From a virus (lineage: Duplodnaviria > Caudoviricetes), in the IMG/VR virus record IMGVR_UViG_3300028048_000038, positions 160,001-224,000 of that record: a DNA stretch of 64,000 nucleotides; one strand, 5' to 3'. Positions 794 to 912 of this stretch are shown here, in pieces; the first letter of the stretch is position 1, and each line of letters opens with the position of its first letter. Under the pieces are notes generated by a model. It did no database searches. It saw only the letters and a list, made by a program, of their open reading frames with translations, and was not told the origin of the DNA. A program made the position numbers and the translations under genes.

Positions 794-912
794 GGAAACA
801 TTTATCCATCTTAGCTATCACGCCAACCTTGGTAGCGTGAGTTGGACTCGAACCAACGACCCTTAAATTATCAGTTTAATGCTATACCTATTAATACTTG
901 CTGTATGTTTCC
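794..912 (-). ncRNA. ACAGCAA-family small RNA copy 2, containing a circularly permuted tRNA-Ile(GAU)
   Basis: GGAAACAU-ACAGCAA...AUGUUUCC (8 bp). Inside, the tRNA 3' part (D-stem 3' strand, anticodon arm, T-arm, UCACGCU-A-CCA) precedes the 5' part (GGCGUGA-UA-GCUA-AGAUGGAUA). Confidence 0.85.

What the first reader, a model, noticed from the sequence alone, without database searches (positions are those of the whole stretch)
794..912. Circularly permuted tRNA-Ile(GAU) opened in the D-loop
Seen, minus strand 5'->3': handle, then UAGGUA-UAGC (D-stem 3' strand, 884-881), A, anticodon arm UUAAA-CU[GAU]AA-UUUAA (GAU at 872-870), GGGUC, T-arm GUUGG-UUCGAGU-CCAAC, acceptor 3' strand UCACGCU-A-CCA (840-830), linker AGGUU, acceptor 5' strand GGCGUGA (824-818), UA-GCUA (D-stem 5' strand), AGAUGGAUAA, handle. 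All four arms pair, but the 3' half comes first. It is the only tRNA here with an encoded CCA, it has its own promoter (926-959), and a D-loop GG occurs on both sides of the break. Known: permuted tRNA genes occur in some unicellular algae (Cyanidioschyzon) and a crenarchaeon (Thermofilum); they mature by cleavage, ligation into a circle and removal of the acceptor linker. YrlA mimics are permuted at the anticodon arm. I know of no D-loop-permuted phage tRNA. Inference: it is either matured, with phage RtcB sealing the D-loop and RNase P plus 3' trimming removing AGGUU, or it works as a handle-tethered tRNA or decoy. Standard tRNA scanners would probably miss it.
Basis: partly seen in the sequence, partly recalled or inferred. 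Interest (0 to 1): 0.92.

Follow-up and report, generated by a model that had tools for sequence, protein, structure and literature searches.

The report
Handle-clamped, rotated tRNA mimic RNA
A 410-kb cattle-gut phage encodes a small RNA that holds a complete tRNA written in rotated order, with its amino-acid end sealed and the whole clamped by a tagged stem; it is most likely a tRNA look-alike partner of the phage's Ro60-like protein, not a working isoleucine tRNA gene.

Summary
On the minus strand, 912-794 holds an 8-bp clamp helix, the letters ACAGCAA, then the D-stem 3' strand, anticodon arm (GAU), T arm, acceptor 3' strand plus ACCA, AGGUU, acceptor 5' strand, D-stem 5' strand and D loop. 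ARAGORN calls tRNA-Ile(GAU) once the order is restored. Controls gave 1 of 400 random pieces and 0 of 400 shuffles.

The reading as a maturing tRNA gene is not supported. The element is one of about a dozen "GGNNNNNN-ACAGCA" handle RNAs in this phage's tRNA region. Their cargoes range from bare anticodon hairpins to whole tRNAs. In five sequence-distinct close orthologues and one more distant positional counterpart, the stems are kept (8 compensatory pairs). The anticodon loop changes identity (Ile, Met-like, Pro-like, one with G33). One orthologue closes the acceptor with only AUUA.

The same handle is about 20-fold enriched, on the gene's strand, beside homologues of a phage protein also encoded here (16643-18316), whose model matches Ro60. 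The best reading is an undescribed variant of Y-RNA-type tRNA mimics (YrlA-like). RNase P might open the acceptor loop; this is untested.

This scan has already noted the same RNA class in other phage and giant-virus genomes.

The parts
926..967 (-). Promoter of the phage's recurrent Bacteroidota type: TTTGG, about 20 nt, then TATCTTTGCA at 935-926.
   Evidence: TATCTTTGCA occurs 73 times on the minus strand of the genome, each preceded by aaaTTTGG at a fixed distance. The box is conserved upstream of the orthologues. The E. coli-type consensus scan does not see it.
905..912 (-). Handle, 5' strand: GGAAACAT.
   Evidence: Perfect 8-bp complement of 801-794. Among the paralogues, each 5' strand matches its own, different 3' strand.
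898..904 (-). Invariant ACAGCAA tag directly after the handle.
   Evidence: 0 of 7 columns vary among the orthologues. It is shared by about 12 paralogues and by 119 elements beside Ro60-like genes in other phages.
885..897 (-). Variable linker ending in a D-loop-like AAUAGGUA (first GG copy).
   Evidence: 11 of 14 columns vary. GG is lost here in L006 only, where the other copy is kept.
881..884 (-). D-stem 3' strand, TAGC.
   Evidence: Pairs with GCTA 815-812 in all orthologues. There is one wobble-compatible change and no compensatory change, so covariation is silent here.
863..879 (-). Anticodon arm UUAAA-CUGAUAA-UUUAA (GAU at 872-870).
   Evidence: The stem has 3 compensatory pairs. The loop is always 7 nt, but 7 of 7 columns vary.
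841..862 (-). Variable loop GGGUC and T arm GUUGG-UUCGAGU-CCAAC.
   Evidence: The T stem has 2 compensatory pairs and the T loop varies in 1 of 7 columns.
834..840 (-). Acceptor 3' strand, UCACGCU.
   Evidence: 7 bp with 824-818; 3 compensatory pairs.
825..833 (-). Loop that seals the acceptor: A73-CCA-AGGUU.
   Evidence: The loop is ACCAAGGUU, ACUAAGGUU, ACCAAGAUU or only AUUA in the orthologues.
818..824 (-). Acceptor 5' strand, GGCGUGA.
802..817 (-). U8-A9, D-stem 5' strand GCUA, and D loop AGAUGGAUAA (second GG copy).
   Evidence: GG is lost here only in L013, where the other copy is kept.
794..801 (-). Handle, 3' strand: ATGTTTCC.
714..787 (-). tRNA-Pro(UGG) starting 6 nt after the handle. 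Its RNase P site would set the 3' end of the element (inferred).
   Evidence: In the six orthologue contexts printed, a tRNA-like sequence begins 6-10 nt after the handle.
16643..18316 (-). Candidate protein partner: a 557-aa Ro60-fold protein (helical-repeat ring plus vWA domain with DxSxS), assigned to DUF7788/DUF2828 and PHROG 850.
   Evidence: Handle RNAs cluster beside its homologues.
9410..10768 (-). RtcB RNA ligase (context only; no link to the element is shown).

Best explanation
The stretch is a gene for a small non-coding RNA of about 119-125 nt. It is transcribed from its own phage promoter. Its 3' end is probably set when RNase P cuts the tRNA-Pro that follows.

The RNA has two modules. 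The first is a handle: an 8-bp helix joining the 5' and 3' ends, followed by the invariant ACAGCAA. About a dozen RNAs of this phage share this handle. It is most likely the binding site for the phage's Ro60-fold protein (window 16643-18316).

The second module is the cargo: a complete L-shaped tRNA body. The chain enters at the D-loop/D-stem boundary, runs through the anticodon arm, T arm and acceptor 3' strand, crosses a sealing loop (ACCA-AGGUU) into the acceptor 5' strand, and leaves through the D loop.

The RNA therefore presents a tRNA look-alike on a Ro60-type particle, as YrlA does in bacteria and mycobacteriophages. It does not serve as a decoding tRNA-Ile.

Shown here: the structure, its conservation, membership of the handle family, the Ro60 fold of the protein, and the co-location of handle RNAs with that protein family.

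Inferred: binding to the protein, the RNA ends, and what the mimic recruits or titrates (tRNA-processing, repair or tRNA-cutting enzymes).
For: Structure and conservation:
- The restored order is a canonical 74-nt tRNA.
- The chance controls are near zero.
- Five sequence-distinct close orthologues plus the more distant L011 give 99% of cells paired, 8 pairs with compensatory change, and 0 of 500 shuffles as high.
- Variable columns are 7 of 58 in stems against 36 of 63 elsewhere (Fisher p 2e-7).
- ACAGCAA varies in 0 of 7 columns and the T loop in 1 of 7.
- At least one D-loop GG is kept in every one of the six aligned sequences.

Family:
- GGN6ACAGCA occurs 13 times on the minus strand against 3 on the plus strand.
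- About a dozen handle elements with a closing stem lie in the 40-kb tRNA region. Each has its own complementary 3' strand.
- Cargoes include anticodon hairpins of 53-75 nt, a T arm alone, an unpermuted tRNA body, and permuted bodies broken in the anticodon arm. The handle is therefore not a tRNA-maturation signal.

Not a stable tRNA-Ile:
- The anticodon loops are CUGAUAA, UUCAUAA, UUCGGGA, CUAGGGG and UGAGGGA on an almost unchanged body.
- L013 seals the acceptor with AUUA only.
- An ordinary tRNA-Ile(GAU) lies at G000 142790-142864.

Partner:
- The 557-aa protein scores DUF7788 63 bits and DUF2828 26 bits.
- A profile of its homologues hits Ro60 in the PDB (E 6e-4).
- The AlphaFold model has pLDDT 91.
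- The top 13 Foldseek hits are all Ro60/TROVE structures, including Thermus phage phiLo Ro60 (E 1e-10 to 4e-7, TM 0.46-0.58).
- In 80 viral loci around its homologues (32-90% identity), handle elements number 119 on the gene's strand against 7 on the other. Scrambled motifs average 11.6 over both strands. 39 elements lie within 500 nt of the gene.

Precedent: Ro60 partners that mimic tRNA are established (PMC4201824; PMC12135203).
Against: - No binding, transcript ends or processing were observed. The RNA-library data are contigs only.
- The Ro60-like gene lies about 16 kb from this element, not beside it. Pfam TROVE does not hit it, and DUF2828 is below its cut-off.
- The handle lacks the GNCGAA motif of known Y RNAs.
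- Rfam YrlA does not hit this element.
- The long-range D stem and the handle never vary among orthologues, so covariation is silent on exactly the pairings that define the D-loop break.
- The encoded ACCA with U at -1 is unusual in a genome where only 1 of 46 ordinary tRNA genes encodes CCA. This fits a processed acceptor end better than a passive loop.
- The authentic, type-matched anticodon loops (A37 with AU-ending anticodons, G37 with GG-ending ones) suggest that the loop is read by something.
Confidence: 0.6

Rival explanations
1. Opened, two-piece tRNA. RNase P cuts between U(-1) and G1 in the sealing loop and exonucleases trim AGGUU back to CCA. The two pieces stay together through the handle, D stem and acceptor stem. 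The result is a clamped tRNA with a free CCA end. It could be charged by IleRS, or could act as a substrate-like decoy for enzymes that need a free acceptor end. This can coexist with Ro60-type binding.
For: - There is a 7-bp acceptor stacked on a 5-bp T stem, with A73-CCA and U at -1.
- ACCA is kept in four of the six aligned sequences, and the loop is nearly constant in five.
- Only 1 of 46 ordinary tRNA genes encodes CCA.
- M. smegmatis YrlA, also with a 7-bp closed acceptor, is cut by RNase P in vitro and is cleaved and CCA-extended in vivo (PMC4201824).
Against: - L016 has ACUA, and L013 has only a 4-nt AUUA loop.
- Other family members seal the acceptor with loops from 4 to 20 nt without CCA.
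- The anticodon switches identity on an unchanged acceptor, so consistent charging is unlikely.
- No ends were observed.
Confidence: 0.2
2. A true circularly permuted tRNA-Ile gene of the algal or archaeal kind. The ends are cut at the clamp and ligated by phage RtcB into a circle. RNase P and 3' trimming then remove the linker to give a decoding tRNA.
For: All four arms and the conserved core nucleotides are present. RtcB and a CCA-adding enzyme are encoded. ACCA is encoded.
Against: - There is no bulge-helix-bulge and no splicing endonuclease.
- RNase P and transcription give 5'-P or 5'-PPP and 3'-OH ends, which RtcB does not join (established enzymology).
- About 30 nt, including the invariant ACAGCAA, would remain in the D loop.
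- The handle is shared with cargoes that cannot be tRNAs.
- The anticodon loop is not conserved.
- An ordinary tRNA-Ile(GAU) is present.
- No junction was seen, though contigs could not show one.
Confidence: 0.06
3. A fast-evolving anticodon-arm decoy or sponge. The RNA displays an authentic anticodon loop on a tRNA body to divert host tRNA-cutting defence nucleases or tRNA-modifying enzymes. The handle serves mainly for stability.
For: - The anticodon loop keeps 7 nt and type-matched position 37, but switches between Ile, Met-like and Pro-like forms in close relatives.
- Small family members display bare anticodon hairpins (His GUG, Cys GCA and Pro UGG here; Tyr GUA in a relative).
- RtcB is nearby.
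Against: No target nuclease is identified. One orthologue has G33. Neutral drift plus occasional cargo exchange could give the same pattern with only six sequences. The strong link of the handle to the Ro60-like gene argues that the handle is more than a stabiliser.
Confidence: 0.1
4. A decaying scar of a tandem tRNA duplication, or a tRNA pseudogene, with no function.
For: The Rfam tRNA model aligns 902-833 as a tRNA with a ruined 5' part. The D loop is present twice.
Against: The arrangement is conserved with compensatory changes, invariant stems and an invariant tag, while the flanks diverge. It has its own promoter. It belongs to a family of about a dozen. It is present in RNA-library contigs.
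Confidence: 0.03

Closest known systems
YrlA-type Y RNAs bound by Ro60/Rsr in bacteria and phages (Rfam RF02553; Chen et al. 2014, PMC4201824; Thermus phage phiLo Ro60 with Yrl1/2, PMC12135203)
   Same: Both are small RNAs whose 5' and 3' ends form a protein-binding stem and whose body mimics tRNA, with a T arm followed by a loop-sealed acceptor stem and D-arm elements. Both are encoded by phages that carry a Ro60-fold protein and RtcB. A paralogue here (G000 143674-143781) is picked up by the YrlA model at 36 bits. M. smegmatis YrlA, with a 7-bp acceptor, is opened by RNase P.
   Different: The tag is ACAGCAA next to a perfect helix, not the bulged helix with GNCGAA. The chain breaks at the D loop, not in the anticodon arm, so a full anticodon arm is displayed. 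ACCA is encoded in the sealing loop. The protein is DUF2828/DUF7788, not Pfam TROVE. The element itself gets no RF02553 match.
Circularly permuted tRNA genes of Cyanidioschyzon, other algae, Thermofilum, and one prasinovirus (BpV1; PMC3673656)
   Same: The 3' part of a tRNA lies upstream of the 5' part on one transcript. A short linker joins the acceptor strands, and the outer ends are brought together by a helix.
   Different: Those genes use a bulge-helix-bulge cut by the splicing endonuclease and yield decoding tRNAs. Here there is no such motif or enzyme, the anticodon identity drifts between orthologues, and the clamp is a tag shared with non-tRNA cargoes.
Class I RNAs of dictyostelid amoebae (Rfam RF01414; PMC7919456)
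   Same: Both have a short terminal stem starting with G, followed directly by a conserved unpaired motif and then variable cargo. The paper's conserved positions (T3, C6, C9, A10, A11 of 11 nt) fit ...ACAGCAA. The full motif sequence is from my memory, not from the text.
   Different: RF01414 gives no match in this genome at E up to 1. Those RNAs are 42-65 nt without tRNA-like cargo, and their partners are RRM proteins. The resemblance is a lead only.
ACAGCAA-handle RNAs noted earlier by this scan in other giant phages and giant viruses (unpublished AI notes)
   Same: Same handle, same kinds of tRNA-like cargo, and same candidate Ro60-like partner.
   Different: This copy has the break in the D loop, a complete anticodon arm and an encoded ACCA. 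Its orthologue series shows anticodon-loop switching.

Membership tests
Canonical tRNA (RF00005 / ARAGORN) | Contiguous cloverleaf with paired acceptor and D stems | tested here: not met
   ARAGORN makes no call. Rfam scores 31.1 bits against a cut-off of 29, but with mismatched acceptor and D stems. The cloverleaf exists only after rotation.
Permuted tRNA genes (algal/archaeal type) | All four arms present in rotated order on one strand | tested here: met
Permuted tRNA genes (algal/archaeal type) | Bulge-helix-bulge at the joined termini, and a splicing endonuclease to cut it | tested here: not met
   The clamp is a perfect 8-bp helix without bulges. PF01974 is absent from the phage. That bacteria lack this enzyme is established knowledge.
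Permuted tRNA genes (algal/archaeal type) | Stable anticodon and identity among orthologues, as expected of a decoding tRNA | tested here: not met
   The anticodon loop varies in 7 of 7 columns: GAU, CAU, CGG and AGG forms, one with G33.
Permuted tRNA genes (algal/archaeal type) | Circular intermediate and a mature tRNA with a new junction | not testable with these tools
   Only assembled contigs of RNA libraries were available.
YrlA (RF02553) | Match to the covariance model above 69 bits | tested here: not met
   There is no match for this element. A paralogue scores 36.2 bits. The window scan found nothing.
YrlA (RF02553) | tRNA-like domain with a T arm, loop-sealed acceptor stem and D arm | tested here: met
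   T arm, 7-bp acceptor sealed by a 9-nt loop, and D stem and loop. An anticodon arm is present in addition.
YrlA (RF02553) | Ro60-binding stem with the GNCGAAN0-1G motif | tested here: not met
   The stem is followed by ACAGCAA, and no CGAA bulge is present. The motif definition is from PMC4201824.
YrlA (RF02553) | Encoded with a Ro60 (TROVE) protein | tested here: inconclusive
   Pfam TROVE gives no hit, but a Ro60-fold protein lies 16 kb away. Handle RNAs sit beside its homologues elsewhere.
ACAGCAA-handle RNAs (class defined by this scan, not published) | 7-8-bp terminal helix starting with G, with ACAGCA(A) directly after its 5' strand | tested here: met
ACAGCAA-handle RNAs (class defined by this scan, not published) | Co-occurrence with a DUF2828/DUF7788 Ro60-fold protein | tested here: met
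   The protein is present in this genome. In 80 loci, elements number 119 on the gene's strand against 7 on the other, against a scrambled-motif background of 11.6.
ACAGCAA-handle RNAs (class defined by this scan, not published) | Physical binding of the handle by that protein | not testable with these tools
   No protein-RNA test was available.
Dictyostelid Class I RNA (RF01414) | Match to the covariance model | tested here: not met
   There is no match at E up to 1 in the whole genome.

The most novel reading that the evidence does not exclude
The clamp holds a tRNA that RNase P opens at the encoded ACCA. This gives a two-piece tRNA with a free CCA end that is tethered to a Ro60-like ring. 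Its anticodon loop is kept authentic but is swapped between Ile, Met and Pro types in closely related phages, because it acts as bait for host tRNA-cutting or tRNA-modifying enzymes. The particle with RtcB nearby would then be a phage tRNA-damage sensing or repair device, or a decoy device.
Probability: 0.15. Interest if true: 0.85.

Novelty: new variant of a known kind. Interest (0 to 1): 0.62.

Why it matters
Ro60/Y-RNA particles are known from animals, some bacteria and a few phages. What their tRNA-like modules do is still open.

This element belongs to an apparently uncatalogued branch: an ACAGCAA handle with a DUF2828/DUF7788 Ro60-fold protein. The branch is common in large gut phages. 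This element is one of the copies in this branch, and among the clearest, in which an entire tRNA (anticodon arm and encoded ACCA included) is displayed.

The orthologue series shows a constant body with a switching, yet authentic, anticodon loop. That gives a concrete handle on what the mimic is for.

It also matters for annotation. Rotated tRNA bodies like this are missed by tRNA scanners, and could be mistaken for permuted or broken tRNA genes.

Tried and rejected
- **Close phage relatives in the GenBank phage collection.** Only the neighbouring tRNA-Pro matched, so this gave nothing for the element.
- **Two degenerate pattern scans of viral contigs.** These added no new orthologue. One pattern was too rigid for a 1-nt indel.
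- **RNA-library contigs.**
  - One bovine-gut metatranscriptome holds an exact 151-nt contig over 809-959.
  - Another holds contigs of an L013-like variant over 837-916, at higher depth than its flanks.
  - Contigs cannot show ends, strand or circles, and DNA carry-over is possible. This counts only as 'present in RNA libraries'.
  - The single reported joint (743 to 841) links two similar T arms and is taken as an assembly chimera.
- **Free-energy folding alone.** It does not single out the cloverleaf (z -1.46). The proposed structure scores -20.1 against an MFE of -26 kcal/mol.
- **A generic scan for any 7-bp closing stem after ACAGCAA.** It proved unspecific (23% of random positions), so the stricter G-initial handle definition with scrambled-motif controls was used instead.
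- **Search for a parent tRNA among the phage's own tRNAs.** The best match was 71% identity, which is only generic tRNA likeness.
- **E. coli-type promoter and terminator scan.** It found nothing useful, because the phage uses a Bacteroidota-type box.
- **Literature searches.** 'DUF2828', 'permuted tRNA' with 'phage', and 'ACAGCAA' with 'tRNA' found no description of this RNA class. The library does not cover all journals.

Full report
**Where it lies.** The window is bases 160001-224000 of a 409,537-bp virus record with inverted terminal repeats and 35% G+C. Sequencing runs that hold the stretch come from cattle and goat gut. The phage carries 46 ARAGORN tRNA calls, nearly all on the minus strand between 124 and 165 kb. 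The finding lies inside this region.

**The observation.** Reading the minus strand from 912 to 794 gives, in order:
- GGAAACAT
- ACAGCAA
- GUAUUAAUAGGUA
- UAGC, then A
- UUAAA-CUGAUAA-UUUAA
- GGGUC
- GUUGG-UUCGAGU-CCAAC
- UCACGCU, A, CCA
- AGGUU
- GGCGUGA, UA
- GCUA
- AGAUGGAUAA
- AUGUUUCC

All coordinates in the finding are right. ARAGORN is silent on the native order. Rfam's tRNA model gives a marginal 31.1 bits over 902-833, with the acceptor and D stems marked as mismatched.

When the part from G824 is placed in front of the part from about 886, ARAGORN calls a tRNA in 138 of 156 junction choices, tRNA-Ile(gat) in most of them. The minimal re-joined molecule is a textbook 74-nt tRNA carrying U8, A14, G15, G18G19, A21, U33, C48, the UUCGA T loop and A73.

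A rotation test applied the same way gave junction-spanning calls in 23 of 35 variants of the element. It gave calls in 1 of 400 random genome pieces and 0 of 400 shuffles. The arrangement also stands in independent contigs from other samples and in an independent DNA-run contig. It is therefore neither chance nor an assembly artefact.

**It is one of a family.** A note from the first stage pointed to a shared ACAGCAA, and I checked this. GG-N6-ACAGCA occurs 13 times on the minus strand and 3 times on the plus strand of the genome. About a dozen handle elements in the tRNA region end in the complement of their own first 7-8 bases. Examples are GGGAACA/TGTTCCC, GGAAGCGT/ACGCTTCC and GGGTACA/TGTACCC. 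Each clamp's 5' strand is thus matched by its own, different 3' strand.

The cargoes differ widely:
- 53-75-nt RNAs with little more than an anticodon-like hairpin (GCA, GUG and UGG loops)
- an 88-nt RNA with a T arm
- a 114-nt RNA holding an unpermuted tRNA body with a 6-nt anticodon loop (window 1341-1454)
- permuted bodies broken in the anticodon arm (G000 143671-143802)
- a permuted Asp(GUC) body without a D arm (G000 148596-148727)
- a 291-nt RNA

A signal shared by such cargoes cannot be a tRNA-maturation signal. It looks like a common binding or stability module.

**Orthologues.** Protein-anchored and pattern searches found five further sequence-distinct close orthologues with the same handle, T arm and acceptor (L002, L017, L016, L006, L013). 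They also found a more distant positional counterpart, L011.
- On the seven-sequence alignment, 99% of cells pair and eight pairs show compensatory change: three in the anticodon stem, two in the T stem and three in the acceptor. No shuffle out of 500 reaches these values, and slid controls pair at 31-47%.
- Among the six close sequences, 7 of 58 stem columns vary against 36 of 63 unpaired columns (p 2e-7).
- ACAGCAA never varies, and the T loop varies at one position.
- At least one of the two D-loop GG copies is kept in every sequence. This fits a preserved tRNA elbow.
- The handle and the long-range 4-bp D stem do not vary among orthologues, so covariation says nothing for or against them. 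Their support comes from perfect complementarity, from the paralogues (handle), and from the lack of any local alternative for the D stem in this copy.

**Why it is not a tRNA-Ile gene in the ordinary sense.**
- The anticodon loop is the most variable part (7 of 7 columns). It reads CUGAUAA here and in L002 and L011, UUCAUAA in L013, UUCGGGA in L006, CUAGGGG in L016 and UGAGGGA (G33) in L017. The acceptor stem and discriminator barely change.
- L013 closes its acceptor stem with AUUA only, and L016 has ACUA.
- The phage has an ordinary, unrelated tRNA-Ile(GAU) at 142790-142864.
- The algal/archaeal pathway needs a bulge-helix-bulge and a splicing endonuclease. The clamp is a perfect helix, and PF01974 is absent.
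- Circularising at the clamp would leave about 30 nt, including the invariant tag, in the D loop.

**What speaks for some processing.** The sealing loop carries A73-CCA and a U before G1, in a genome where only one of 46 ordinary tRNA genes encodes CCA. Chen et al. showed that M. smegmatis YrlA has a 7-bp closed acceptor, is cut by RNase P in vitro, and is cleaved and receives CCA in vivo (PMC4201824). Opening of the loop by RNase P is therefore a live possibility for this copy, though not for L013.

The loops are also not random. The AU-ending anticodons carry A37 and the GG-ending ones carry G37, as in real Ile/Met and Pro tRNAs. The loop seems to be kept authentic while its type changes. 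With only six sequences this is an observation, not a test.

**The candidate partner.** The 557-aa protein at window 16643-18316 matches DUF7788 (63 bits), the start of DUF2828 (26 bits, below cut-off) and PHROG 850 'RNA-binding protein'.
- Its homologues share an invariant DxSxS motif.
- A profile of 60 homologues finds Ro60 as the best solved relative (E 6e-4).
- The AlphaFold model is confident (pLDDT 91, pTM 0.90).
- Its top 13 Foldseek matches are all full-length Ro60/TROVE structures: Xenopus, human, Deinococcus Rsr and Thermus phage phiLo (E 1e-10 to 4e-7, TM 0.46-0.58).
- Pfam TROVE itself does not hit the genome.

As an independent test of the link suggested by earlier notes, I fetched 80 viral loci around homologues at 32-90% identity and counted handle elements.
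- There were 119 on the gene's strand and 7 on the other, against 11.6 per scrambled motif over both strands.
- 48 of 80 loci hold at least one.
- 39 elements lie within 500 nt of the gene.
- Many carry T arm, sealed acceptor and D arm in YrlA order.
- Of 84 distinct elements of 90-180 nt, 34 give a junction-spanning tRNA call after rotation, 26 of them only in rotated order.
- In this phage's close relatives the RNAs sit in the tRNA cluster more than 10 kb from the gene.

RtcB (window 9410-10768) and a CCA-adding enzyme (G000 107031-107438) are also encoded.

**Transcription and ends.** TATCTTTGCA, preceded at a fixed distance by aaaTTTGG, recurs 73 times on the minus strand before genes and RNAs. 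It fits the Bacteroidota -33/-7 promoter form. One copy ends 13 nt before the handle (935-926), and the box is conserved before four of the orthologues. In the six orthologue contexts printed, a tRNA-like sequence starts 6-10 nt after the handle, so RNase P at that tRNA would set the 3' end. This is inferred. RNA-library contigs contain the element or its L013-type variant, but they cannot show ends or circles.

**Comparison with known systems.** The closest published kind is YrlA with Ro60 (PMC4201824; phage example PMC12135203). The logic is the same: a terminal protein-binding stem plus a tRNA mimic with a sealed acceptor.

The differences are the tag (ACAGCAA instead of the CGAA bulge), the protein family, the break point (D loop, leaving a full anticodon arm) and the encoded ACCA. 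The YrlA model picks up a paralogue at 36 bits, below its 69-bit cut-off, and does not pick up this element.

Permuted tRNA genes are known in algae, Thermofilum and one prasinovirus (PMC3673656), but their defining processing features are not met here. The amoebal Class I RNAs share the stem-plus-motif layout, but RF01414 finds nothing here.

I found no paper describing ACAGCAA-handle RNAs or a function for DUF2828. The jumbo-phage survey mentions only TROVE proteins with a tRNA-like partner (PMC7824862). Earlier follow-ups of this scan reached the same class on other genomes. I treated those as leads and re-tested the protein fold and the co-location here.

**Verdict.**
- The 'maturing permuted tRNA-Ile' reading is unlikely (about 0.06).
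- The 'handle-tethered tRNA mimic' reading is favoured, with the Ro60-like protein as probable partner.
- RNase P opening of the acceptor loop is an open sub-question (about 0.2).
- It is a new variant of a known kind, of moderate to high interest.

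Noticed in passing
window 1341-1454 (-): A handle RNA (GGAATCTT...AGGATTCC with ACAGCAA) holds an unpermuted tRNA body with a 6-nt anticodon loop. Orthologues occur in L006, L010, L013 and L016. 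ARAGORN calls it a tRNA with a 2-base anticodon.
   Followed up: partly
G000 143671-143802 (-), outside the window: A paralogous handle RNA with T arm, sealed acceptor and D arm in YrlA order. The Rfam YrlA model matches it at 36.2 bits (cut-off 69).
   Followed up: partly
G000 154219-154509 (-), outside the window: A 291-nt RNA closed by an 8-bp handle (GGAAGCGT/ACGCTTCC) with ACAGCAT. The cargo is large and was not identified.
   Followed up: no
G000 136577-136653 (-), outside the window: ARAGORN calls a tRNA with anticodon CUA (labelled Pyl). This may be an amber suppressor, raising the question of TAG recoding in this phage.
   Followed up: no
whole genome, e.g. window 926-967, 4681 and 5000 (-): A phage-wide promoter box, aaaTTTGG-N20-TATCTTTGCA, has 73 copies on the minus strand and 20 on the plus strand. 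It has the Bacteroidota -33/-7 form, which points to a Bacteroidota host.
   Followed up: partly
window 984-1055 (-): A tRNA-His(GUG)-like gene is found by Rfam (45 bits) but not by ARAGORN. It has an unusual T loop (UGCGAAA) and two mismatched acceptor pairs.
   Followed up: no
L002 against L015: Two relatives carry an identical copy of the element but different tRNA genes directly downstream. The element may therefore move or be kept as a unit within a mosaic tRNA cluster.
   Followed up: no
window 7055-20373 (-): A run of translation and RNA genes lies near the tRNA cluster: TelA-like protein, SSB, RtcB, radical SAM protein, NAD synthase, TyrRS, the Ro60-like protein, a sigma-70-type factor and IF3.
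   Followed up: partly
L014 and L018 (226-kb metagenome contig): The same T arm and acceptor 3' strand (GTTGGTTCAAGTCCAACTCACGCT) follow an ACAGCAA in a different, higher-GC context with a different clamp. This is possibly a distant family member.
   Followed up: no
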